This document shows, in pieces, positions 2,586-53,009 of a DNA stretch of 64,000 bases. The notes under the pieces were generated by a model. It made no database searches. It had not been told where the DNA came from and worked only from the letters and a program-made list of their open reading frames with translations. The translations under genes and the position numbers were made by a program. The stretch lies in assembly GCF_024700885.2 (NCBI RefSeq), contig NZ_CP117016.1; one strand, 5' to 3'. The DNA is from Escherichia coli. Its GTDB lineage: Bacteria; Pseudomonadota; Gammaproteobacteria; Enterobacterales; Enterobacteriaceae. The first letter of the stretch is position 1; every line of letters starts with the position of its first letter.

Positions 2586-3749
2586 CACGGTTGTCAGGTC
2601 ACGTCCCATCTGTAAATCGACATTGCCGACGCAGGTGCAGACCTCTTTTTTGGTGCCCGCATGTCTTTCGGTGGCATAACCCACACACAGTCCGGCCAGG
2701 ACGGTATCGAAATATTTTTCTTCTGCATTCGCGGGTAAGTAGTCGGGATGAGCGACTAGATGGCGGAGGTAATGATAAAAAGCGTCCAGCTGTGCGGGTT
2801 GCTGAGCAAAATTCACATTGACTAACTCTTTCGCACTTTCACCAACCACCATTGCCGAGACGCGCATTCCCAGATCGCCTTCCACCGTCCGTTTCACGAA
2901 GGGTTCCGGTACGCCGTGTAAAACGGTGTCGGGCGAGAGCGTGTTGGCACAGGCGGAATAGACATCGGTGGTTGCGCCACCCATGTCGATCAGCATGAAC
3001 TCTTTCCAGCTGTGATCGACGTTACTGATTGCCTTAACCAGTTCAAAGACCGTCCATGGTGTCGGCATTGGTTCTTCGCCTGTTTTATCAACAATGACAT
3101 CCAACCCTTTCCCTTTAACGATGCGTTTAAGGAATATGTCGCAGATAGCCTGGCGTGCAGCTAAAGGGTTCGGATGGTCAAGATCGGGCAGAACGTTGTC
3201 GACGATGGTCAGGTCTTTATGCCCGAGGATCTCCTGCACCTCGTCCTGAATATCCCGGTTTCCGGCATAAATAATGGCGCAGTCGAGTTTGGATTCTGCC
3301 AACACACGGGCGTTATTCAGTCCGTAGCTTTCTTCTCCGCCATCGGTGCCGCCGGTGAACAAGAGAATATCGGGCTGCGTTTCTTCCAGTGCCTGGATAT
3401 CACGGCGGTTCAGCTTGTAGGCGTAATATTGCGCAATTTTAGCACCCGCAGAGTGAGCGGTTACTTTCGCGGTTTCCAGGGTGATAGAAGGCACCAATCC
3501 CATTGCGGCAACCGCCAGCCCACCTTTGGCAGAGGAGGAATACTTCAATGCAACCTCACCACTGTTTAACAGGGGGAGGGCATTATCTACGTTTAACACC
3601 TGGTCCAGGCTGGAGAAAAACCCCTTCGCCAGATGATGGGTGGTGGTTGGGGTCAGAACGTGGTTAACCAACGTTAACGCGTCCCCCTCCCGGGTGAAGA
3701 GGGCTGCTTTGGTCCACGTCGAACCAATATCGACAGAGACGATTTGCAT
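2578..3749 (-). pseudogene. glmL: glutamate mutase component L, N-terminal part truncated by IS26
   Basis: ORF 2559-3749 (396 aa) reads 19 nt into IS26 before stopping; start overlaps glmS stop. Confidence 0.65.
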
Positions 3750-4198
3750 CAGATTGCCTCTTCAAGAATGCGAGTATCAACGTCATGACGTTGGTTGATA
3801 TCGTGGGCCATCAGCTGACAAACATCTTCTAAGTCATGACTTGGGGAAAAGACGCGATCAAATCCCATCTCTTTGAACTTGGTTTCCACGTCAGCGAAGT
3901 CATGTTTTCCGACCACCAGGTTACCGCCCACATAGAGCAGGATGTTACCCAGCCCACGCTCGATGCAGCGTTCGCGCATGCCCAGACAATCGATATCGCC
4001 ATGCCCATAGATAGAGGAGACGACAATCGCGTCAGCACCAGTTTCAATGGCAGCATCAATATATTCGTCCTGGCTGACCATTACGCCCAGATTAATAACT
4101 CTGAAGTCATGGTTGCTAAAAACGCGGTCCAGAACTTTATTGCCTACTGCATGGCAGTCCGCGCCAATAACGCCAATCACAAGTGTTGCTTTCTTCAT
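3749..4198 (-). CDS. glmS: glutamate mutase S/sigma subunit, B12-binding
   Basis: Start at [19 protein letters not shown] with an AAGGAT ribosome-binding site upstream; cobalamin-binding-type N-terminus. Confidence 0.8.
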
Positions 4199-42448: not shown

Positions 42449-43519
42449 TTATTTGATTTCAATTTTGTCCCACTCCCTGCCTCTGTCATCACGATACTGT
42501 GATGCCATGGTGTCCGACTTATGCCCGAGAAGATGTTGAGCAAACTTATCGCTTATCTGCTTCTCATAGAGTCTTGCAGACAAACTGCGCAACTCGTGAA
42601 AGGTTGGCGGATCCCCTTCGAAGGAAAGACCTGATGCTTTTCGTGCGCGCATAAAATACCTTGATACTGTGCCGGATGAAAGCGGTTCACGACGAGTAGA
42701 TGCAATTATGGTTTCTCCGCCAAGAATCTCTTTGCATTTACCAAGTGTTTCCTTCATTGATATCCCGAGAGCATCAACATGCAATGTTGTAGGGATGGCA
42801 ATTTTTACGCCTGTTTTGCTTTGCTCGACATAAAGATATCCATCTACGATATCAGACCACTTCATTTCGCATAAATCACCAACTCGCTGCCCGGTAACAA
42901 CAGCCAGTTCCATTGCAAGTCTGAGCCAACATGGTGATGATTCTGCTGCTTGATAAATTTTCAGGTATTCGTCAGCCGTAAGTCTTGATCTCCTTACCTC
43001 TGATTTTGCTGCGCGAGTGGCAGCGACCGGGTTTGTTGTTATATGGCCTTCAGCTATTGCCTCTCGGAATGCATCGCTCAGTGTTGATCTGATTAACTTG
43101 GCTGACGCCGCCTTGCCCTCGTCTATGTATCCATTGAGCATTGCCGCAATTTCTTTTGTGGTGATGTCTTCAAGTGAAACATCAGGCAGACCCCTCCTTA
43201 TTGCTTTAATTTTGCTCATGTAATTTATGAGTGTCTTCTGCTTGATTCCTCTGCTGGCGAGGATTTTTTCGTAGCGATCAAGCCATGAATGTAACGTAAC
43301 AGAATTATCACTGTTGATTCTCGCTGTCAGAGGCTTGTGTTTGTGTCCTGAAAATAACTCAATATTGGCCTGTATTGCTTCAGTAATTGCTATCCTCCTG
43401 TCTCTGCCTAATCCGAACTCTTTACCCGTCCTTGGGTCCCTGTAGCAGTAATATCCATTGTTTCTTATATAAAGGTTAGGGGGTAAATCCCGGCGCTCAT
43501 GACTTCGCCTTCTTCCCAT
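42449..43519 (-). CDS. int: lambda-type integrase (tyrosine recombinase)
   Basis: 356-aa protein MGRRRSHERRDLPPNLYIRNNGYYCYRDPRTGKEFGLG, recognised as lambda Int. Confidence 0.95.
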   Translation of the reverse strand: MGRRRSHERRDLPPNLYIRNNGYYCYRDPRTGKEFGLGRDRRIAITEAIQANIELFSGHKHKPLTARINSDNSVTLHSWLDRYEKILASRGIKQKTLINYMSKIKAIRRGLPDVSLEDITTKEIAAMLNGYIDEGKAASAKLIRSTLSDAFREAIAEGHITTNPVAATRAAKSEVRRSRLTADEYLKIYQAAESSPCWLRLAMELAVVTGQRVGDLCEMKWSDIVDGYLYVEQSKTGVKIAIPTTLHVDALGISMKETLGKCKEILGGETIIASTRREPLSSGTVSRYFMRARKASGLSFEGDPPTFHELRSLSARLYEKQISDKFAQHLLGHKSDTMASQYRDDRGREWDKIEIK

Positions 43520-43715
43520 TTCTGATCCTCTTCAAAAGGCTACCTGTTACTGGTCGATTTAAGTCAACCTTTACCGCTGATTCGTGGAACAGATACTCTC
43601 TTCCATCCTTAACCGGAGGAGGGAATATCCTGCATTCGCGCACCCATCGACGAACTGTTTCAAGGCTTCTTGGGCGTCGCTGGCGTGCGTTCCACTCCTG
43701 AAGTGTCAAGTACAT
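43497..43715 (-). CDS. xis: lambda-type excisionase
   Basis: 72-aa protein MYLTLQEWNARQRRPRSLETVRRWVRECRIFPPP, recognised as lambda Xis; overlaps int. Confidence 0.9.
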   Translation of the reverse strand: MYLTLQEWNARQRRPRSLETVRRWVRECRIFPPPVKDGREYLFHESAVKVDLNRPVTGSLLKRIRNGKKAKS

Positions 43716-43754
43716 CGCAAAGTCTCCGCAATTACACGCAAGAAAAAGCCGCCA

Positions 43755-43922
43755 TCAGGCGGATTGGTGTTCTTTCAGTTCTTCAATTCGAATATTGGTT
43801 ACGTCTGCATGCGCTATCTGCGCCCATATCATCCAGTGGTTATAGCAGTCGTTGATGTCCTCTGCTTCGATAACCCTGTCGAATGGCTCTCCATTCCATT
43901 CACCTGTGACTCGGAAGTGCAT
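43755..43922 (-). CDS. small hypothetical protein (55 aa), xis-proximal
   Basis: ORF with GGAG ribosome-binding site; MHFRVTGEWNGEPFDRVIEAEDINDCYNHWMIWAQIAHADVTNIRIEELKEHQSA. Confidence 0.4.
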   Translation of the reverse strand: MHFRVTGEWNGEPFDRVIEAEDINDCYNHWMIWAQIAHADVTNIRIEELKEHQSA

Positions 43923-44040
43923 TTATCATCTCCATAAAACAAAACTCGCCGTAGCGAGTTCAGATAAAAGAAATCCCCGCGAGTTCGAGGATTGTTATTC
44001 ATTGCCGATATTCACCTTTATCGCGAACACCTTTACCGGT

Positions 44041-44283
44041 TTATCTCCTTTGCATAGCACGTAATTTTTTCAGATGGTTCTCCTGTTCTGTTTCAGCCAG
44101 GATCTGGTGATATTCTCTGTGATCAATGTGTTCGAATAAATTATTGAATTTTCTGATGCACACTCTTCCAGGATAGCCATCCATCCTCTTGAAGAATACT
44201 GAGTGATCAGTACTACGAATGATTTTTACTGGATAGCCAGCGCTATCGGTGTATATCTGACCACGTTGAATCAGAGAGAACAT
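44041..44283 (-). CDS. hypothetical phage protein (80 aa)
   Basis: ORF in early-left operon orientation. Confidence 0.45.
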   Translation of the reverse strand: MFSLIQRGQIYTDSAGYPVKIIRSTDHSVFFKRMDGYPGRVCIRKFNNLFEHIDHREYHQILAETEQENHLKKLRAMQRR

Positions 44284-44349
44284 TCGTTTATCCCCAGATA
44301 AAAATATAGCAATACCAATTACATAAAATACTTCAGGCCAAGCATCATT

Positions 44350-45006
44350 TCACCCCTGGGGCGGTTCTGGTAGCGGCATCCAGTGGGTTACCTCCATGCG
44401 GCACCCATCATCCGACGTAAACCACGAACGATCGTCCGCACTGAACCAGCCAATCCGGATATAACCCCACACATCGAAGAAAAGTACGTCGTGATTATTA
44501 TCCGGCATTCGATCACTACAGCTTATCCAACCATCAGGAGTTACCGGAGAGTTGCCACCGGGAATATTTTCCGGAATATTTTGTTGTGCGTTTTGTGGTT
44601 GTTCGGATTTACCCTGAAGCATGGCGGCGCGGCAGGCGTTCCAGCCAGCTGTTCGCCCAAGCGCGTAAACTTCAGATGGCTCAAGATAATCAATGTCATG
44701 CCCATCCTCATCGTCGTTCTCAGGTAATGCAGCAGGTACTACCGGTACTGGCGGAGCGGCGTAGACTTCAATAATCCCATTATCAATAGGCCATTCCCCA
44801 TCCTTGATGTAGTCACTTGTGCCGTCAACTTGCTGTTCTGCAATGTGGAATGCGCCAATAGGCTCTGCTTCCAGCGATGCCAGTGCAATACGCAGGGCAG
44901 CCAGGATATTCCCCTGGTAATCATCAAGCCCGAAAGGAAGCTCATCACGAATGCTTTCATAATCGTTGATAGCCTGCTGCAGCCATTCTCTTGTGATAGT
45001 GCTCAT
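44350..45006 (-). CDS. DUF551-like phage protein
   Basis: 218 aa; C-terminal WFSADDRSWFTSDDGCRMEVTHWMPLPEPP resembles the DUF551 family common in lambdoid early regions. Confidence 0.5.
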   Translation of the reverse strand: MSTITREWLQQAINDYESIRDELPFGLDDYQGNILAALRIALASLEAEPIGAFHIAEQQVDGTSDYIKDGEWPIDNGIIEVYAAPPVPVVPAALPENDDEDGHDIDYLEPSEVYALGRTAGWNACRAAMLQGKSEQPQNAQQNIPENIPGGNSPVTPDGWISCSDRMPDNNHDVLFFDVWGYIRIGWFSADDRSWFTSDDGCRMEVTHWMPLPEPPQG

Positions 45007-45671
45007 GATGCCTCTCCTTTACATGCTTCGGTGACGTTTATTCCAGCGTTGTGCAGTGCCTCAAGAACCTGATGCTGCCTGTAAACCATTTCAGTGTGGT
45101 AAGGCTCGTCAAAATCGACGCGATGCAACATGCTATAGCATTGCGGAAGCACAACCTCCCGCAACTCCAGCTCAGCAATGCGCTTCTCTGCGGCTTCCAG
45201 CTTCTCGCGCATATCGTCAACGTACTCGACCAGAGATCCGCCAGCAGGAATTTCGCACTCCTCGACCAGTTGGAAGTAGATATCAGCTGCGGCCCGTGTG
45301 TTGCTATGCCTAGCGTCGCCCATCTCACCTTCACGAAGAGCACCGCGTTCGGCGGTAAGATTGGCTATTTTGCTGTCTTTGCCTTCAAGCTCAACGCGCA
45401 GCTTCCCTACCGTTAGCGCAATATCCTCGTTCTCCTGGTCACGGCGTTTGATGTATTGCTGGTTTCTTTCCCGTTCATCCAGTAGTGCCAGCACGGTTTC
45501 TGGTCCGGCCAGAAATTTGAAGGCGTTGAGCGCATCAATATCCACACCGTAATCTTTAAGTTCCTGTTCACTTAACAAATCATCATCAGCTGGCAACATT
45601 AACAGGCGTTCCATTGCTGGAATTGCACGTTTCGCCGCCTCACGCAGTGCCTGATAGTCAATCTTGCTCAC
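45003..45671 (-). CDS. coiled-coil phage protein, paralog A
   Basis: 222 aa; shares N-terminal IDYQALREAA motif with next gene; start overlaps upstream stop. Confidence 0.5.
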   Translation of the reverse strand: MSKIDYQALREAAKRAIPAMERLLMLPADDDLLSEQELKDYGVDIDALNAFKFLAGPETVLALLDERERNQQYIKRRDQENEDIALTVGKLRVELEGKDSKIANLTAERGALREGEMGDARHSNTRAAADIYFQLVEECEIPAGGSLVEYVDDMREKLEAAEKRIAELELREVVLPQCYSMLHRVDFDEPYHTEMVYRQHQVLEALHNAGINVTEACKGEAS

Positions 45672-46264
45672 TGGTTGCCTCCTTTTCGAAGCTGGGCGGC
45701 GATATCTTCGAGAACGCCATCAGAGAATGAGCGGTCAAAATCGCCTTCCGGCGCATTAGCCATAAACTCAGTAGAGGTAAGAATCATCCGGGCAATATCC
45801 GCGGCGTTCTTCGCAGTATCATCAATAAAACCAGCTTCCCAGGCAGCCAGCATTCTGTTCGCCACAAAATAAGCGCCTTCCTTGCGTGCTTCAGTCTTCA
45901 CTTCAGCTAGAAAAGCATCGGTAGCTGGAGTTTCGCTGTGGTGCAGGGCATCGTTGATAATCATTGCAGCAACTCCGGCCTGCCCTGCATCCGTGACCGA
46001 CACATGCTCAAGAGTTACGGCCATTGCGTGTTTCAGCCCGGCGTTCTCTGCCACCAGCGCCGCGAGATTAGTCTCAAGCTCTGCAATACGGCACATAGCA
46101 TCAATATTTGTGTCTTCCAGCCGCTTAATTTCATCCAGTAGAGCCAGTGCCACCGATGGCGTGAACGCCATACGAAACGCCACAAAATTTTGATGCATAG
46201 GTTCTGTTTCTACTGCAACTGCCGCATCTCGCAGTGCCTGATAGTCAATTGTCATTCTCGCCAT
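45668..46264 (-). CDS. coiled-coil phage protein, paralog B
   Basis: 198 aa; N-terminal [14 protein letters not shown]. Confidence 0.5.
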   Translation of the reverse strand: MARMTIDYQALRDAAVAVETEPMHQNFVAFRMAFTPSVALALLDEIKRLEDTNIDAMCRIAELETNLAALVAENAGLKHAMAVTLEHVSVTDAGQAGVAAMIINDALHHSETPATDAFLAEVKTEARKEGAYFVANRMLAAWEAGFIDDTAKNAADIARMILTSTEFMANAPEGDFDRSFSDGVLEDIAAQLRKGGNQ

Positions 46265-46917
46265 CCTTCACAGTTGTAATCACGACAGCCTTCAAAATCA
46301 TATGGGCTGTACTGCCAGGTAATTTTTCCGCAATGCGGACAATTCCAACGCACCTTCCCGCTTCGCGACTTCTTTCTTCTGTTCTGCTTTTTCAACCAGT
46401 CAGGCATGACCAAACCTGCGCCCTGAACCATTGTTCTGCGGTTAAAGTTATTGATATTGAACGTCCGGCGCTTTGCTGAATCAGCAATGGAAAATGGCAA
46501 CCAAACTATTCCTGGTTCGTTTTTGTTGGCGACGCTAAAGATGGTCGCTTTACTGAAGTCATCTGTTGGCAATCCACCGTGTTGAAGCCAGTAAACATCG
46601 TTGCCGTTCCAGCTACCTTTTTTGTAGGCCACATACGCAGTGCAATCTGACTCAATCAGGCTTTCTGTAGGGATGTACTGGCAATCAACGTGCCACACTG
46701 CCATTGCATCCACGCTATCCGCGCAAACAGGCTGATCGATATCTCGCCCACAATTCCAGGCTTTTTGGGCTTCTTCCAGCGTGTAAACATGAGCGCGATC
46801 GATATCAGAACTGTAACCATTGCCGTTATGGCAATGGAATGAAGCGTTATTGCCCACAGTTTCACGCGAGCACATCATGTAAAAACGGTTAGTCACTGGC
46901 TGCCTCCTTTGCGCCAC
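46252..46917 (-). CDS. hypothetical phage protein with C-terminal Cys-rich zinc-ribbon-like motif
   Basis: 221-aa ORF (GTG start; ATG alternatives at 46878/46875); CPHCG...C...C at C-terminus. Confidence 0.5.
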
Positions 46918-47076
46918 ATCGCATTCAGATATTTGTTTTCATTCACTGATGGAAAAGAATTTCTCTTAAGTAATTCCTCTCTCGATGGCATTGGCTTTAC
47001 GCGTTGGCGAATAATCATTTCTGCCGGAAGAATGCCGGGATTGTATGCAAGTCCTCTCATGGTAAATTACTCTTTG

Positions 47077-47391
47077 TTAATTTATTTGTATGCCTGCTCT
47101 TTCTTCATCGAGTTTTTTTAGCTTGTATCGCATAGCTCTTACTGAATAAATTGAGCGGCAGGTTGCAATTGCTATTTCTTCTGCGGAGAACTTACCGAAA
47201 AGTGATACTTCGGCTCTTGTCCATCGTCTTCCACGAAGTCGGCTAACAATGTCAGCGCCAATCCTTGTTGCTTTCGCCATTACTGCTTTTTCAGTCCTTT
47301 CCAGTTTTTCAGCGATAACTTCAACTGGCATTGTCGCCGCCACTTCGCGCAAGAAATCGACTTCCCATTTCTCCCATGGAGTCTTTTTCAT
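47077..47391 (-). CDS. hypothetical phage protein (104 aa)
   Basis: Basic protein in early-left operon. Confidence 0.45.
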   Translation of the reverse strand: MKKTPWEKWEVDFLREVAATMPVEVIAEKLERTEKAVMAKATRIGADIVSRLRGRRWTRAEVSLFGKFSAEEIAIATCRSIYSVRAMRYKLKKLDEERAGIQIN

Positions 47392-47402
47392 AGGCGATAC
47401 CG

Positions 47403-47891
47403 TTATTTGATAAGAAGTGAAGGTTTCCCAACTTTGAGTTGAGCACCGGGGATATTTATTCCTGCTTTTAGTTGGTGTTTGATTGCCAGTTTGTCGGCTT
47501 TAATTGTCGTTTCAAACTCAACGTATTCAGGAGGAAGGGTGCTTGAGTCGATGATTTCTACAGTTTCTGACGGTTTGCGGATTGTTACCTGGTGAATACC
47601 TGCTCGAATCTTTTTCTTGCCAACCATTTCAAGCGATGACGCTATATACGCCATAATGCTGTCAATCTTATTTTGAATTACTGCGGCTCGCTCATTTAGT
47701 GACTTTGCCTCGTCCTTGAGGCGTTCAGCATAACCAGATTCATTTTTAATAATGGCAAGAAGTTGCTCTATTTTATCGGTAAATTCTCCTTCCATGCCTT
47801 CTATTGTGTCAGCAATCATCTCTGGCTCTAAATCTGAATCCATCAATTTTGCGTATTCATTGGCTATTTCATATAGTTTGCTCACTGGCAA
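47403..47891 (-). CDS. Gp157-like recombination accessory protein
   Basis: 162-aa coiled-coil protein immediately downstream of and overlapping recT; assignment to the Gp157 family is from memory. Confidence 0.45.
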   Translation of the reverse strand: MPVSKLYEIANEYAKLMDSDLEPEMIADTIEGMEGEFTDKIEQLLAIIKNESGYAERLKDEAKSLNERAAVIQNKIDSIMAYIASSLEMVGKKKIRAGIHQVTIRKPSETVEIIDSSTLPPEYVEFETTIKADKLAIKHQLKAGINIPGAQLKVGKPSLLIK

Positions 47892-48771
47892 CCTCCAGTT
47901 TCGCTTTGCATTCTATGTAAATGGCTTGTACGTTCTGCTGCAATTTCATTCCAGATGTCAGGCGATATGCTTCTGCAAAATATCGCTTCAAATCATCCAT
48001 GTTTTCTGCCTGAGCCATTTCATCACAAAGAAGTTGTGCTTTTTCCATAATTTCCTGCTGGCGTTTCCGTTCATCTTCGCGGATATATTCCTCTGATTTG
48101 TGCGGCATAACTGGTTCAGTCCACACACCTTCTTCTTCGTTTAGTACGTGAATAGCACTATCAAGACGTGATGCCTTAGGCCAATACTTGCTTGCACGCT
48201 TTACGACCGTCTTTCGCGCCATCTCTTCCCAGAATGTTTTCCACGGTCCATTCTTTGCCTTGCTCGTTGCTTCCACAGCTTTAATTTCTGCCAGACTCAT
48301 TTCTTCAGTCAGGTAGTCACCATCTGCTGTTTTAACCGTGCAATAACCACCAACAATAGAGCCTCGCTCACCAAATGCGTTGTATTTGTGGGTTGGTGCT
48401 GAATCAAGACCGTTTGATTCATAGGTGTCGTTTGAGTACACCAGTTTGCATTGCCCCCACTTAATTGATCCTGTCGACTGTGCAAGGTGAAGTAATCCCA
48501 TGTAACTGATATCAAGGCACACCATGCCGTCGCGAGGAACCAGATAAGCCAGTTTGCTGGCCGGGTTTAAGGTGATGCCGATCGCCGCAACGTTGATGAT
48601 AGCGTTCTGTGCGCTGGTCGGATTTGCCAGTGCCGTTTTAGCCAGGTAATCATTTTTCTGGAAATACTGAATTGCAAACTGGCTTTCCTTAGCCCATGTC
48701 ACCGTCTGTTCAGTCAATGCTCCGCAGAATAACTGCTCCTGCTGTTTAACGAATTCAACGATATTGCTCAT
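47869..48771 (-). CDS. recT: RecT-family single-strand annealing recombinase
   Basis: 300-aa protein, recognised as RecT-like; occupies the position of lambda bet. Confidence 0.7.
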   Translation of the reverse strand: MSNIVEFVKQQEQLFCGALTEQTVTWAKESQFAIQYFQKNDYLAKTALANPTSAQNAIINVAAIGITLNPASKLAYLVPRDGMVCLDISYMGLLHLAQSTGSIKWGQCKLVYSNDTYESNGLDSAPTHKYNAFGERGSIVGGYCTVKTADGDYLTEEMSLAEIKAVEATSKAKNGPWKTFWEEMARKTVVKRASKYWPKASRLDSAIHVLNEEEGVWTEPVMPHKSEEYIREDERKRQQEIMEKAQLLCDEMAQAENMDDLKRYFAEAYRLTSGMKLQQNVQAIYIECKAKLEVASEQTI

Positions 48772-49079
48772 GCTGCTTCTCCATAAATGTGTCTGCGTTT
48801 GAATATTGCGAAGGCATATTCAGCCTTAACTCTTTCGGTTATTGCATCCCAGAACCATTCAGCGGCTTTTTCCTGATAGTTACAGTCATCATCTTCCAGC
48901 CAGTCGATAGCGTCCTTAGTGTGTTCATCTGGTTTATATGAGCGAAGCATTTCGCTTATTGGGTCGCAACGTTTGCAGAGGCGATCAACTTCACTGTTGA
49001 TTCGTTCGTAATCTTCATCAGTAAAACTTGCGATTATTTGCGATATTTCACGCTTATCATTCAGAGTCAGAATCATCAT
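48768..49079 (-). CDS. hypothetical phage protein (103 aa)
   Basis: ORF overlapping recT start. Confidence 0.45.
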   Translation of the reverse strand: MMILTLNDKREISQIIASFTDEDYERINSEVDRLCKRCDPISEMLRSYKPDEHTKDAIDWLEDDDCNYQEKAAEWFWDAITERVKAEYAFAIFKRRHIYGEAA

Positions 49080-49160
49080 CTTTCTCCTGTTCTTTGTGCT
49101 GATTGAGCATTTTGTTCATCTGACGAATGAATTCTTCGTCTGACCAGTTATCTGTAAAAC

Positions 49161-49313
49161 TCATTTCCTGCGATACCACGGAAGGTTGATAGCTGATTTC
49201 ATCTCTTTATTTGCTTCAAGCCACATTTTGGAATCACCAATAAATCTGGCTATTACTGCTTTGTTTTGTGCCGCACGAAGCATCTGGTGATTGATGGCTA
49301 TTTCATTGCGCAT
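49161..49313 (-). CDS. kil: Kil-like host division inhibitor (50 aa)
   Basis: MRNEIAINHQMLRAAQNKAVIARFIGDSKMWLEANKEMKSAINLPWYRRK; resemblance to lambda Kil is from memory; adjacent to cIII as in lambda. Confidence 0.45.
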   Translation of the reverse strand: MRNEIAINHQMLRAAQNKAVIARFIGDSKMWLEANKEMKSAINLPWYRRK

Positions 49314-49432
49314 AACGCCTCCAGTTGTTTCTTTGCTGCTCTGATTAATTGTTTAACTCGGCGTGATAATTCAGATTCGTGCGGGTAGAAAGCGGACATG
49401 ACGCCGCTACCCGCGAGCTGAAAGTGCATCAT
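49298..49432 (-). CDS. cIII: CIII-like protein (FtsH inhibitor)
   Basis: MMHFQLAGSGVMSAFYPHESELSRRVKQLIRAAKKQLEAL resembles lambda CIII; AAGGAG ribosome-binding site. Confidence 0.5.
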   Translation of the reverse strand: MMHFQLAGSGVMSAFYPHESELSRRVKQLIRAAKKQLEALCAMK

Positions 49433-49615
49433 GGGTAACTCCTTATATTTGATTGCATAACGAAAACGCCTCGAGTGAAGCGTTATTGGTATGCATATAA
49501 AAAGGCCCTCACACTGGAGGGCAAAGAAGAGTTCCAATAATCAGAACAAGTCGGCTCCTGTTTAGTTACGAGCGACATTGCTCACATAGCAGACTCGTAA
49601 ATCTGCTATAGGCGC

Positions 49616-49777
49616 TTATTCGCATCGCATGACAACATCAAATTTTTCGAGATTACTTTGTCGCAACAATCCTTCTTCTACGCGGTCAGCTTTTCTATAA
49701 TTATCAAATTCGAAATGTTTAATTACTTCTTTTGTTTCTCGCTCTATAACTTCAACAATGTATTTCTTATTCATCAT
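49616..49777 (-). CDS. small hypothetical protein (53 aa)
   Basis: ATGA start/stop overlap with upstream ORF. Confidence 0.35.
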   Translation of the reverse strand: MMNKKYIVEVIERETKEVIKHFEFDNYRKADRVEEGLLRQSNLEKFDVVMRCE

Positions 49778-50070
49778 TCTTCCCCAAGAGCTTTTCTGAT
49801 TGCTGCAAGACCTTTATTAACAGCTCCATACCATTCTGGATATGTTGTCGTTGTTCTATTTTTGGTTTGCTTAAGTAATAACTGAAGTGCTTCGAGAAGG
49901 TCAGGTGCTGCCGCTATTAGATTGGCATCTTCAATGCATTGAACTTCCTCACAGATTGCAATATACGAACGCCAGCCTGCGCCATTTTCAAGTGAGTCTG
50001 CCTGGATGATTTTAATCTCATCGCCATCCATCATTATTTCCCACTTACCTTCAGTACCTTTAAATTCCAT
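49774..50070 (-). CDS. hypothetical phage protein (98 aa)
   Basis: ORF in N operon. Confidence 0.45.
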   Translation of the reverse strand: MEFKGTEGKWEIMMDGDEIKIIQADSLENGAGWRSYIAICEEVQCIEDANLIAAAPDLLEALQLLLKQTKNRTTTTYPEWYGAVNKGLAAIRKALGEE

Positions 50071-50109
50071 GTTAGCCTCTGTTGTTTATGCCAAAAATGA
50101 AGGCCACCA

Positions 50110-50361
50110 TCAGGCAGCCTTGTTGTAAATGTTGCAGGTATCAAGTAAGTAATTAGATGGAGCGCCATAAATTATGAATTCATCGTTTGTCGGGTCCATC
50201 TCCATCTCTTGGCCTATTGCCATTCTTGCGTCAGTGTCATCAGCGGCGAAACATAAAACAGCCCACGCACCCATTGTTTTAAAAAGAACTGCAATTGGCT
50301 GTGGTTTTACTGAATTTGCGTTAGCGCGAAAATCACAAATCGCACTTTCATGAAATTCCAT
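50110..50361 (-). CDS. hypothetical phage protein (83 aa)
   Basis: ORF directly downstream of N. Confidence 0.45.
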   Translation of the reverse strand: MEFHESAICDFRANANSVKPQPIAVLFKTMGAWAVLCFAADDTDARMAIGQEMEMDPTNDEFIIYGAPSNYLLDTCNIYNKAA

Positions 50362-50369
50362 ATCTCACC

Positions 50370-50696
50370 TCAAATAAGTGGTTTGCTGCCTAATTTCATT
50401 TTCTGGCGACCAACACAAGTCACGCCCATTTCACTGCGTGGCTTGCTGTACCATGTGCGCTGATTCTTGCGCTCAATACGTTGCAGGTTGCTTTCAATCT
50501 GTTCGTGGTATTCAGCCAGCGCCGTAAGGTCTATCGGATTCAGTGCGCTTTCTACTCGTGATTTCGGTTTGCGATTCAGCGAGAGAATAGGGCGGCTAAC
50601 TGGTTTTGCGCTTACCCCAACCAACAGGGGATTTGCTGCTTTCCATTGAGCCTGTTTCTCTGCGCGACGTTCGCGGCGGCGTGTTTGTGCATCCAT
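50370..50696 (-). CDS. N: antitermination protein N
   Basis: Starts MDAQTRRRERRAEKQAQWKAAN, the arginine-rich boxB-binding motif of lambda N. Confidence 0.85.
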   Translation of the reverse strand: MDAQTRRRERRAEKQAQWKAANPLLVGVSAKPVSRPILSLNRKPKSRVESALNPIDLTALAEYHEQIESNLQRIERKNQRTWYSKPRSEMGVTCVGRQKMKLGSKPLI

Positions 50697-50868
50697 CTGG
50701 ATTCTCCTGTCAGTTAGCTTTGGTGGTGTGGTAGGTGGGAGACCCATTTCGACCTGCTTCGGCCGACTTCAATTCGGCAATAGTTCCGCAGGCCTCGCCG
50801 CTTTACGTGCGACATATTCCCATCCATGAACCCTTCACCACACCCCAAAGCCTTCTGCTTTGAATGCT

Positions 50869-50902
50869 GCCCTTCTTCAGGGCTAAATTTTTAAGAGCCT
50901 CA
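50869..50902 (-). promoter_or_regulatory. nutL site (boxB hairpin GCCCTGAAGAAGGGC plus adjacent boxA-like sequence)
   Basis: boxB palindrome at 50869-50883 between pL and N. Confidence 0.7.
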
Positions 50903-50944
50903 CCTTCAATGGTGGTTAGTGCGTCCTGCTGATGGCTTAAAATT

Positions 50945-51012
50945 ACAAGAAAGATTGTATGTTGTAAACAAGAAATATTGTAAAAATGGGCGTGAAAAAC
51001 AAACTCCATTGT
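50945..51012. promoter_or_regulatory. oL/pL region with three 434-type operators (ACAA-N6-TTGT)
   Basis: ACAAGAAAGATTGT, ACAAGAAATATTGT, ACAAACTCCATTGT. Confidence 0.7.
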
Positions 51013-51062
51013 TTTTAAACGGAAAATAGTTTGTTTTTTGGTTGTCGAAATTGAGGTGAGGA

Positions 51063-52415
<1,353 letters not shown>

Positions 52416-52423
52416 GACATTCC

Positions 52424-52455
52424 CGCTCTTACACATCCCAGCCCTGAAAAAGGGC
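52424..52455 (+). promoter_or_regulatory. nutR site (boxA CGCTCTTA and boxB GCCCTGAAAAAGGGC)
   Basis: Canonical boxA and boxB hairpin between cro and cII. Confidence 0.8.
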
Positions 52456-52534
52456 ATCAAATTAAACCACACCTATGGTGTATGCATTTATTTGCATACA
52501 TTCAATCAATTGTTATCTAAGGAAATACTTACAT

Positions 52535-52813
52535 ATGCAACTTACAAGTACTCGCAAGAAAGCGAATGCAATTACAAGCAACATCCTGAATCGAATTGCT
52601 GTACGTGGTCAGCGAAAGGTTGCCGACGCGTTAGGGGTTAATGAATCGCAAATTTCGCGATGGAAAGACAGCTTCATCCCCAAAATGGGAATGCTTCTGG
52701 CTGTTCTTGAATGGGGTGTTGAAGACGAGGAGTTGGCGGAACTGGCTAAGAAAGTAGCCAGAATGCTGACAAAAGAAAAAGCCCCGAAGAACGGCGAATT
52801 CTTCGAGGCCTAA
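52535..52813 (+). CDS. cII: CII-like transcriptional activator
   Basis: 92 aa; ...VNESQISRWKDSFIPKMGMLLAVLEWGVEDEE matches CII helix-turn-helix region; AAGGAAA ribosome-binding site. Confidence 0.75.
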   Translation: MQLTSTRKKANAITSNILNRIAVRGQRKVADALGVNESQISRWKDSFIPKMGMLLAVLEWGVEDEELAELAKKVARMLTKEKAPKNGEFFEA

Positions 52814-52847
52814 TGTAGAAAGACTGGATCAATCCACGGGAGTAATT

Positions 52848-53009
52848 ATGACAAAACGTCGTAAGAAATACCAGGAAAAAGAAGAGATTCGACACCCTGA
52901 TTCACCTGAGGGATTAGTGGTAGCCGCAGCAAATAACAGGGCGTTCGCAGAGCGCCTTGTTGGTGTTTACAGACTAGCCAAAGCAGGAGTGAAACATGGG
53001 CGTCGTTAA
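52848..53009 (+). CDS. small hypothetical basic protein (53 aa)
   Basis: ORF with GGGAG ribosome-binding site between cII and the replication gene. Confidence 0.3.
   Translation: MTKRRKKYQEKEEIRHPDSPEGLVVAAANNRAFAERLVGVYRLAKAGVKHGRR

What the first reader, a model, noticed from the sequence alone, without database searches (positions are those of the whole stretch)
46252..47391. Unassigned early-left genes including a protein with a C-terminal Cys-rich zinc-ribbon-like motif
In the early-left operon, where lambdoid phages commonly carry host-takeover and anti-restriction genes, lie a 221-aa protein with a C-terminal CPHCG...C...C motif and a 104-aa basic protein, plus a possible 55-aa ORF between them. 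None matches a family I can name. Start-codon choice for the 221-aa ORF is ambiguous (GTG at 46917 versus ATG at 46878).
Basis: seen in the sequence. Interest (0 to 1): 0.4.

Follow-up and report, generated by a model that had tools for sequence, protein, structure and literature searches.

The report
Three unassigned phage early-left accessory genes
The region holds three real, co-transcribed early genes of a lambda-like E. coli prophage: a two-repeat DNA-binding helix-turn-helix protein, a tiny DUF2737 protein and a 214-residue zinc-ribbon protein with no recognisable fold. All three belong to catalogued families of unknown function, so the finding is a modest lead, not a discovery.

Summary
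All three ORFs on the minus strand of 46252-47391 are real genes in the PL-type operon of a lambdoid prophage. The window is 100% identical to E. coli MLI114, with the prophage next to ybhC.

- **The 55-aa ORF** is Pfam DUF2737 (E 1.4e-32) and is 76% identical to P22 orf56.
It starts at GTG 46896 and gives 214 aa. AGGAGG lies 6 nt upstream and GTGA overlaps the DUF2737 stop. All 58 alleles start with this GTG in at least 10 different upstream contexts.

Function is untested. My best guess is a nucleic-acid-binding accessory effector.

The parts
47077..47391 (-). 104-aa basic protein (pI 9.86) made of two three-helix Myb/GcrA-like HTH repeats (helices 8-17, 23-30, 34-44 and 59-66, 70-77, 81-101).
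46893..47060 (-). 55-aa DUF2737 protein, homologue of P22 orf56.
   Evidence: Pfam PF10930, E 1.4e-32, 111.8 bits against a cut-off of 25. phrog_1117, E 1e-37. 76% identity to P22 orf56. PGAP calls it 'DUF2737 family protein'.
46252..46896 (-). 214-aa protein (24.6 kDa, pI 8.0) of family phrog_2457, with the corrected GTG start at 46896 and the TGA stop at 46254-46252.
   Evidence: phrog_2457 E 5e-119 over the full length. Annotated as 645 nt in MLI114, 611R6 and P7. Homologues. pN/pS 0.17, and all 58 alleles start with GTG. AF2 pLDDT 92.6, pTM 0.80.
46893..46910 (-). 18-nt junction AAAGGAGGCAGCCAGTGA. It encodes the ..KGGSQ* tail of the DUF2737 protein, the AGGAGG Shine-Dalgarno and the GTG start of the 214-aa gene (GTGA overlap). 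It is also a mosaic breakpoint.
   Evidence: Sequence. Conserved across different upstream contexts. The P1/P7 homology block ends at 46907 and the HK140/mEpX1/Gally/Kapi1 block begins at 46912. Two exact copies in the window against 0.08 expected.
46402..46896 (-). Residues 1-165: globular alpha/beta domain built from two units of about 80 residues (hairpin-helix-strand-helix-strand). D71, Q73, G98, N99 and R143 are invariant; D100 is nearly so.
46348..46401 (-). Residues 166-183: basic arm ([18 protein letters not shown]).
   Evidence: Sequence. The family consensus KKxRRRK..GKTR is. Together with the ribbon it aligns weakly to ribosomal eL43/L37a (E 0.008-0.03).
46255..46347 (-). Residues 184-214: C4 zinc ribbon, C186-x2-C189-x14-C204-x4-C209.
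   Evidence: C186, C189 and C204 are invariant down to 20-43% identity; C209 is nearly invariant in A1. pLDDT is 86-91. Weak profile matches to zinc-ribbon and zinc-finger chains only.
45668..45685 (-). Second exact copy of the junction linker (AAAGGAGGCAACCAGTGA), at the Ea22-like to Ead/Ea22 gene boundary. It lies outside the finding.
   Evidence: The same linker recurs at other gene boundaries in 66 of 102 fetched loci.
47403..48771 (-). Context: the recombination module upstream in the operon, RecT (47869-48771) and Sipho_Gp157 / Mu-Gam-like protein (47403-47891).
   Evidence: Pfam RecT E 3.8e-34 and Sipho_Gp157 E 1.6e-36. PGAP annotation.
45668..46255 (-). Context: the Ead/Ea22-like gene immediately downstream. 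Its ATG overlaps the 214-aa stop (ATGA).
   Evidence: Pfam Ead_Ea22 E 3.4e-10. PGAP coordinates. Sequence.

Best explanation
The region carries three translationally coupled, non-core accessory genes of a lambdoid prophage's early-left (PL) operon. This position corresponds to lambda's exo-xis region and P22's ea region.

Shown:
- All three are real, conserved genes.
- The 214-aa gene is a self-contained cassette that carries its own Shine-Dalgarno and GTG start. It has been exchanged recently between unrelated E. coli phage types.
- The 104-aa protein has a tandem Myb/GcrA-like HTH architecture.

Inferred:
- The 214-aa protein is made early and acts alone, since it has no conserved partner gene.
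- It docks on nucleic acid, or on a nucleic-acid machine, through its basic arm and C4 zinc ribbon.
- Its duplicated alpha/beta domain, the conserved core of the family, then binds or modifies a target common to many Proteobacteria.
- The likely result is host takeover or counter-defence, not an essential step of the phage cycle.
- The 104-aa protein most likely binds DNA with its two HTH repeats as a small regulator or DNA-binding adaptor. It is inherited together with the Gp157 and DUF2737 genes.
- DUF2737 remains a small protein with no deducible activity.
For: Genes and operon:
- Gene reality rests.
- Operon position, with overlapping or near-abutting stops and starts and no excess of promoter or terminator motifs inside.

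Early expression elsewhere:
- In P7 the homologue upf87.6 lies in the operon behind the C1 operator Op(hea).
- In Yersinia, Acinetobacter and Methyloprofundus prophages it sits in operons next to cI/cro-type repressors.

Cassette behaviour:
- Protein copies 96-98% identical occur in P22-like, Stx2c, P1/P7/SJ46 and Vequintavirinae Av-05 phages.
- The gene is in 270 of 5426 complete E. coli genomes, at 174 plasmid and 105 chromosomal places.
- About 19 upstream and 16 downstream context clusters flank an almost identical gene.
- No neighbour recurs across distant contexts.

Nucleic-acid docking:
- Cysteines are invariant and the arm is lysine/arginine-rich.
- The only sequence resemblance is to rRNA-binding zinc ribbons eL43/L37a and to zinc-finger linkers.

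Core domain:
- D71, Q73, G98, N99 and R143 stay invariant at 20-43% identity.
- The domain survives in ribbon-less variants.

104-aa protein. Its contiguity with Gp157 and DUF2737 in about 10 phages is shown.
Against: - There is no functional evidence of any kind.
- PADLOC and all profile libraries are silent.
- No anti-defence library was available.
- The sequences are absent from the supplements of two accessory-gene screens.
- The zinc-ribbon similarity to ribosomal proteins is marginal (E about 0.01). Zinc ribbons also mediate protein-protein contacts, as in TraR/Orf73 and Ogr.
- The invariant D71 and R143 sit at equivalent positions of the two repeats. They could be a structural salt bridge instead of a functional site.
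- The internal-repeat signal is weak (hhalign probability 37%; single-sequence Smith-Waterman not above shuffles).
- The fold is a prediction only, and AFDB could not be searched.
Confidence: 0.4

Rival explanations
1. The 214-aa protein is a developmental regulator of the lysis-lysogeny decision, like other lambda and Stx-phage exo-xis genes. It would act as a zinc-ribbon transcription factor on phage or host promoters, or on RNA polymerase.
For: It occupies the same genomic position as lambda exo-xis genes. Those genes include two zinc proteins, Ea8.5 and the TraR homologue Orf73, and are reported to affect lysogenisation and induction (PMC3824215, PMC9239242, PMC8614690). It has a basic arm and a zinc ribbon.
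Against: A 97%-identical copy sits in the rV5-like phage Av-05 (Vequintavirinae), and rV5-like myoviruses are virulent from background knowledge, so that phage has no lysogeny decision. There is no similarity to Ea8.5 (BLASTP E 0.88). No Pfam hit to TraR/DksA or Ogr/Delta zinc fingers. Ribbon-less variants exist.
Confidence: 0.2
2. The N-terminal duplicated domain is an enzyme acting on nucleic acids or nucleotides, for example a modification, cleavage or nucleotide-signal-degrading activity. The zinc ribbon would serve as a substrate-targeting module.
For: A small set of polar residues stays invariant across very divergent members: VDxQ, GND and R143. The family is broad, with 893 HMM hits at E <= 0.001 across Enterobacterales, Vibrio, Pseudomonas, Burkholderia, Acinetobacter and Methyloprofundus. 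That breadth fits a universal substrate better than a strain-specific protein target. DNA methyltransferase genes lie nearby in F116 and in locus L012.
Against: No fold or sequence similarity to any enzyme superfamily. The conserved G-x-N turns and the D/R pair may be structural. The methyltransferase neighbourhood is seen in only two contexts. P7's old note 'putative tyrosine phosphatase' fails, because there is no CX5R and the Cys is not conserved.
Confidence: 0.2
3. The three genes are accessory parts of the recombination or replication module. The 104-aa protein would take the positional place of P22 Abc1/Abc2, and the 214-aa protein would act as a DNA-end or replisome cofactor.
For: They lie immediately downstream of RecT and Gp157. 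P22 has erf-abc1-abc2-orf56, with the DUF2737 homologue in the matching place. Phage Gally labels the 104-aa protein 'Anti-RecBCD protein 1'. The Acinetobacter homologue of the 214-aa protein sits just before a DUF1376 gene, next to cro.
Against: No BLASTP alignment of the 104-aa protein to Abc1 or Abc2. The 214-aa gene travels without any Rec module in P7, Av-05, F116, Vibrio phages and metagenomic contigs. A 2025 survey of lambdoid Rec modules names no such component in the passages I read or searched (PMC12315714).
Confidence: 0.12

Closest known systems
Lambda / Stx-phage exo-xis region genes (orf60a, orf63, orf61, orf73/TraR-like, ea22, ea8.5) and the P22 ea region
   Same: Same place in the genome, between the recombination module and xis/int in the PL operon. 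They are early, non-essential, highly mosaic small genes. Ea22/Ead homologues lie directly downstream here. That region also holds zinc-binding proteins.
   Different: The 214-aa and 104-aa proteins have no sequence relationship to any named lambda exo-xis protein. Ea8.5 gives BLASTP E 0.88, and there are no TraR/DksA Pfam hits. Only DUF2737 has a named P22 counterpart, orf56, which is itself uncharacterised.
GcrA DNA-binding domain and Myb/SANT repeats (R2R3-type)
   Different: No Pfam GcrA or Myb hit at E <= 0.1. The protein is too short (104 aa, both halves HTH) to hold a GcrA-type C-terminal sigma70-binding domain, a feature I know from background knowledge of GcrA. The DNA target is unknown.
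Ribosomal zinc-ribbon proteins eL43/L37a (a basic arm plus a C4 ribbon that binds rRNA)
   Same: Residues 169-216 of the family profile align to eL43/L37a, covering the basic stretch followed by CxxC...CxxC (E 0.008-0.03).
   Different: The similarity is marginal. It covers only the last 45 residues and probably reflects a shared motif, not common descent. The last Cys pair has x4 spacing here.
PHROG phrog_2457 (unknown function) and P7 Upf87.6
   Same: Full-length membership (E 5e-119). P7 Upf87.6 covers the gene at about 98% nucleotide identity.
   Different: Nothing differs. This is the family itself. It has no function, no Pfam entry and no solved structure.

Membership tests
Pfam DUF2737 (PF10930), 55-aa ORF | Score above the Pfam gathering threshold over the full model | tested here: met
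   111.8 bits against a cut-off of 25, E 1.4e-32, residues 1-51 on model positions 1-51 of 53. 76% identical to P22 orf56.
PHROG phrog_2457, 214-aa protein | Full-length profile match | tested here: met
   E 5.1e-119, residues 1-214 on profile positions 1-220 of 222. All 33 members of alignment A3 (the query and 32 relatives at 20-43% identity) hit it.
C4 zinc ribbon | Four conserved Cys in two knuckles (CxxC ... CxnC) on a small beta hairpin pair | tested here: met
   C186, C189 and C204 are invariant; C209 or its equivalent is nearly invariant. Strands 182-185 and 192-195 have pLDDT 86-91.
C4 zinc ribbon | Zinc actually bound | not testable with these tools
   Needs ICP-MS or PAR assay on purified protein.
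Protein tyrosine phosphatase (note on P7 Upf87.6) | HCX5R(S/T) active-site loop with a conserved catalytic Cys and Arg | tested here: not met
   The sequence is [10 protein letters not shown], with Tyr where Arg is required. C22 is replaced by R or G in homologues. No phosphatase Pfam hit.
P22 Abc1 / Abc2 anti-RecBCD proteins (label on the 104-aa homologue in phage Gally) | Sequence homology to P22 Abc1 (94 aa) or Abc2 (97 aa) | tested here: not met
   BLASTP finds no alignment at E <= 100 to either protein. tblastn of the 104-aa protein against 50,697 phage records does not hit P22.
GcrA family (104-aa protein) | N-terminal GcrA-type HTH DNA-binding domain | tested here: inconclusive
GcrA family (104-aa protein) | C-terminal sigma70-interacting domain after a linker (feature recalled from background knowledge) | tested here: not met
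   The protein is 104 aa and both halves are HTH repeats. There is no room for such a domain.
Myb/SANT tandem repeats (104-aa protein) | Tandem three-helix repeats of about 50 aa with a conserved aromatic core | tested here: inconclusive
Lambda Ea8.5 (hybrid homeodomain / zinc-finger fold) | Sequence or fold similarity to Ea8.5 | tested here: not met
TraR/DksA C4 zinc finger (lambda Orf73) and Ogr/Delta zinc finger | Pfam zf-dskA_traR or Ogr_Delta match | tested here: not met
   Pfam-A scans of the protein and of 32 distant relatives return neither family.
Known anti-phage defence proteins (PADLOC-DB) | Match to any PADLOC model | tested here: not met
   No hits at E <= 0.1 for any of the three proteins.
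Known anti-defence proteins | Homology to a characterised anti-defence family, or a counter-defence phenotype | not testable with these tools
   No anti-defence profile library was available. The sequences are absent from the supplements of two accessory-gene screens.

The most novel reading that the evidence does not exclude
The 214-aa protein is the E. coli representative of a large family with a new fold (893 HMM hits at E <= 0.001 among 50%-identity cluster representatives). The family would be single-gene phage effectors, a duplicated alpha/beta domain with a basic arm and C4 zinc ribbon, that disarm a widely conserved host defence or host nucleic-acid process. They would spread as a plug-in cassette between temperate, plasmid-prophage and virulent phages through a conserved 18-nt SD/start linker.
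Probability: 0.25. Interest if true: 0.6.

Novelty: new member of a known kind. Interest (0 to 1): 0.3.

Why it matters
If the 214-aa family has a counter-defence or host-takeover activity, it would add a new fold and mechanism to the phage-host arms race. It would also annotate hundreds of protein clusters: it is in 5% of complete E. coli genomes, in P1-like plasmids that often carry resistance genes, and in Stx2c phages.

The corrected start codon and the linker that marks mosaic breakpoints are useful now for annotating lambdoid ea/exo-xis regions. As things stand, these are ordinary 'hypothetical' early genes with better-defined architecture.

Tried and rejected
- **Phosphatase note in P7**: rejected. 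There is no CX5R and the Cys is not conserved.
- **'Anti-RecBCD protein 1' label in phage Gally**: rejected by BLASTP against P22 Abc1 and Abc2.
- **Ea8.5, TraR/Orf73 and Ogr zinc proteins**: no similarity.
- **P22 EaE as a positional counterpart of the 214-aa protein**: no similarity.
- **Sequence and profile searches against the PDB**: only zinc-motif noise.
- **PADLOC and NCBIfam**: nothing.
- **Domain fusions among the longer homologues** P0240, P0252, P0264 and P0248: no Pfam domains. P0197, P0232, P0184 and P0253 look like chimeric or frameshifted gene calls.
- **Guilt by association**: eight distant genomic contexts share no neighbour.
- **Internal repeat**: not significant by single-sequence Smith-Waterman and only weak by hhalign.
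- **Literature**: no papers for DUF2737, Upf87.6 or the PHROG ids. The exo-xis modelling paper and the Rec-module survey, as far as I read or searched them, do not mention these proteins.
- **The search for related loci with the distant alignment A3**: failed for lack of a conserved stretch. With A1 it returned only close E. coli-type loci.
- **Rfam on 43000-53000**: no RNA family.
- **Promoter and terminator scan**: promoter-like sites are at the shuffle mean, and none of the consensus sites, promoter or terminator, falls inside the three genes.
Full report
**Where the window comes from**

Window 43000-52000 is 100% identical to the chromosome of E. coli MLI114. The surrounding annotation shows a lambdoid prophage next to ybhC. 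Reading along the minus strand, the genes run: cI-like repressor, N, kil, RecT, Gp157, three genes labelled hypothetical or DUF2737, two Ead/Ea22-like genes, DUF551, DUF4222, xis, int. The finding therefore lies in the PL-type early-left operon, between the recombination module and the integration end. This matches lambda's exo-xis region and P22's ea region.

**Are the ORFs real?**

All three ORFs are present on the minus strand.

- **The 55-aa 'possible ORF'** is a gene. It matches Pfam DUF2737 with E 1.4e-32, well above the gathering score. It is 76% identical to P22 orf56.
- **The 104-aa ORF** (pI 9.86) has 51 homologues and two PHROG matches.
- **The large ORF** has 138 word-indexed homologues. 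A profile search of 1.84 billion cluster representatives gave 893 hits at E <= 0.001 and 198 at E <= 1e-10, nearly all 200-220 aa and aligned end to end.
- Among 80 ungapped copies from viral contigs and the window there are 58 alleles. Of these, 57 are intact and the mean pN/pS is 0.17.
- No Rfam family lies in 43000-53000. None of the consensus promoter or terminator sites found in 44000-52500 falls inside the three genes, and promoter-like sites are at the level of shuffled sequence.

**The start codon**

The evidence favours a third codon, GTG 46896.

- AGGAGG at 46908-46903 sits 6 nt upstream, and the GTG overlaps the DUF2737 stop as GTGA.
- PGAP in MLI114, phage 611R6 and P7 all annotate 645 nt.
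- Homologues start MxNRFY, with F5 and Y6 at least 90% conserved. The first predicted strand begins at residue 5.
- The PHROG profile aligns from residue 1 of the 214-aa form.
- The strongest evidence is comparative. In the window, 611R6 and P7 the upstream sequences are unrelated and become alignable only at ..GGAGGCA[AG]CCA GTG. In 81 loci carrying a gene whose product is 96-98% identical to the query, the 400 nt upstream fall into about 19 clusters. At least 10 are clearly different contexts, and all converge on that same motif.
- All 58 alleles begin with GTG.

Some database entries of 208 aa use ATG 46878, but that choice removes conserved residues. The protein is therefore 214 aa.

**The 214-aa protein**

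- **Family assignment.** It belongs to phrog_2457, of unknown function. It has no Pfam, NCBIfam or PADLOC assignment.
- **Distribution.** Source names are 'hypothetical' throughout, or 'putative zinc finger protein' in Vibrio phages. Homologues occur in Enterobacterales, Yersinia, Vibrio, Pseudomonas phage F116, Burkholderia phages, Acinetobacter and Methyloprofundus.
- **Duplicated N-terminal domain.** The secondary-structure order repeats: hairpin 5-22, helix 40-49, strand 54-58, helix 59-64, strand 67-71, then hairpin 88-103, strand 130-134, helix 135-141, strand 142-145. Profile-profile alignment of the two halves gives E 3.5e-4 at only 37% probability. A single-sequence test was not significant. 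An internal duplication is therefore likely but not proven.
- **Conserved residues.** At 20-43% identity the invariant residues are D71, Q73, G98, N99, R143, C186, C189 and C204. D100, G27, Y28 and P56 are nearly invariant.
- **C-terminal region.** Residues 166-183 form a Lys/Arg-rich arm. Residues 184-214 form a C-x2-C-x14-C-x4-C ribbon. The only PDB sequence similarity is to zinc-finger linkers and, weakly (E 0.008-0.03), to the rRNA-binding ribosomal zinc ribbons eL43/L37a.
- **Ribbon-less relatives.** Some keep the N domain but lack the ribbon. The N domain is therefore the core of the family.
- **The P7 phosphatase note.** The old note 'putative tyrosine protein phosphatase' does not hold. 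The HC..G motif lacks the Arg, and its Cys is not conserved.

**Genomic behaviour of the 214-aa gene**

- Protein copies 96-98% identical occur in a P22-like podovirus (611R6), IME10, Stx2c phages, P1/P7/SJ46 plasmid-prophages and the Vequintavirinae myovirus Av-05.
- The gene is present in 270 of 5426 complete E. coli genomes. More places are on plasmids of about 92-100 kb (174) than on chromosomes (105).
- In P7 it lies in an operon behind a C1 operator.
- In Yersinia, Acinetobacter and Methyloprofundus prophages it lies in operons adjacent to cI/cro-type repressors.
- In F116 it follows three methyltransferase genes.
- Neighbours differ in every distant context. It appears to act without a dedicated partner.
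- Longer 'fusions' carry no known domain or look like chimeric or frameshifted calls.

**The 104-aa protein**

- Alignment shows two copies of a W..E..L..(8)..IA....RS...V motif. Relatives of about 152 aa have three copies.
- AF2 (pLDDT 82.6) predicts two three-helix bundles.
- The profile weakly hits the NarL HTH (E 0.023) and phrog_323 'transcriptional regulator, D5-like'.
- It is not Abc1 or Abc2, and P22 is not among its phage hits.
- It is inherited as one block with the 3' part of Gp157 and with DUF2737 in HK140, mEpX1, Gally, Louie, Kapi1 and others.
- I conclude that it works like a tandem Myb/GcrA-type DNA binder. Membership of the GcrA family is not supported.

**A recurring junction sequence**

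- The 18-mer AAAGGAGGCARCCAGTGA occurs twice in the window, at 46893-46910 and at 45668-45685 (the Ea22-like to Ead boundary). The chance expectation is 0.08.
- It encodes the ..KGG(S/N)Q* tail of the upstream protein, the SD and the GTG of the downstream gene.
- It is present in 66 of 102 fetched loci, in some of them at a second gene boundary as well as at the 214-aa start.
- Phage homology blocks break at it. The P1/P7 block ends at 46907 and the HK140-type block starts at 46912.
- It looks like a linker at which ea-region cassettes are exchanged. From memory, and unverified here, conserved boundary sequences were discussed for HK620 and the lambdoid phages around 2000-2001.

**Mechanism**

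Function is not shown for any of the three genes. I commit, at about 0.4 confidence, to the following.

- The 214-aa protein is an early, stand-alone accessory effector.
- Its basic arm and zinc ribbon dock on nucleic acid or on a nucleic-acid machine.
- Its duplicated domain engages a broadly conserved target, for host takeover or counter-defence.
- The 104-aa protein is a DNA-binding regulator or adaptor.

The rivals are a lysis-lysogeny regulator (weakened by the copy in Av-05, an rV5-like phage, which I know as virulent), an enzyme, and a recombination or replication cofactor (weakened by the lack of linkage to Rec modules).

**Verdict**

These are still catalogued hypothetical early genes. 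Interest is modest at 0.3, with some upside if the fold and a counter-defence role are confirmed.

Noticed in passing
window 46893-46910 and 45668-45685 (minus strand); also L023-L102: An exact 18-nt junction AAAGGAGGCARCCAGTGA recurs at different gene boundaries of the ea region. It carries the upstream gene's KGG(S/N)Q* tail, the SD and the GTG start. It coincides with mosaic breakpoints between phage homology blocks and may be a recombination linker for cassette exchange.
   Followed up: partly
window 46893-47060 versus P22 (L004 7450-7620): The DUF2737 gene sits just after the recombination and anti-RecBCD genes both here (recT-gp157-104aa-DUF2737) and in P22 (erf-abc1-abc2-orf56). The Rec modules themselves are unrelated, which hints at a conserved distal module gene or a boundary marker.
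   Followed up: no
phage Gally OV696608.1 23094-23405; P7 NC_050152 upf87.6: Two public annotations look wrong. 'Anti-RecBCD protein 1' on the 104-aa homologue has no similarity to P22 Abc1. 'Putative tyrosine protein phosphatase' on the 214-aa homologue lacks a CX5R motif.
   Followed up: yes
L016 (Escherichia phage Av-05, Vequintavirinae) 3492-4148: An rV5-like myovirus (virulent, from background knowledge) carries a copy of the 214-aa protein about 97% identical to the prophage protein, but with a different 5' end and start (ATG..KNRFY). This indicates recent transfer between temperate and virulent phages.
   Followed up: partly
window 45668-46264: The mechanical ORF list starts the Ea22-like gene at ATG 46264. 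PGAP and the ATGA overlap with the 214-aa stop place the start at ATG 46255 (MTIDYQALR...), matching the conserved Ead/Ea22 N terminus.
   Followed up: partly
P0197, P0232 (homologues): Chimeric proteins join an Ea22-like or an unrelated N terminus to the C-terminal half of the 214-aa family. They are probably products of deletions or recombination between neighbouring ea-region genes.
   Followed up: partly
window 47403-47891: The Sipho_Gp157 protein next to RecT also gives a weak Mu Gam Pfam hit (E 0.01) and is labelled 'Mu Gam-like end protection' in HK140. Whether it is a RecBCD or DNA-end inhibitor was not examined.
   Followed up: no
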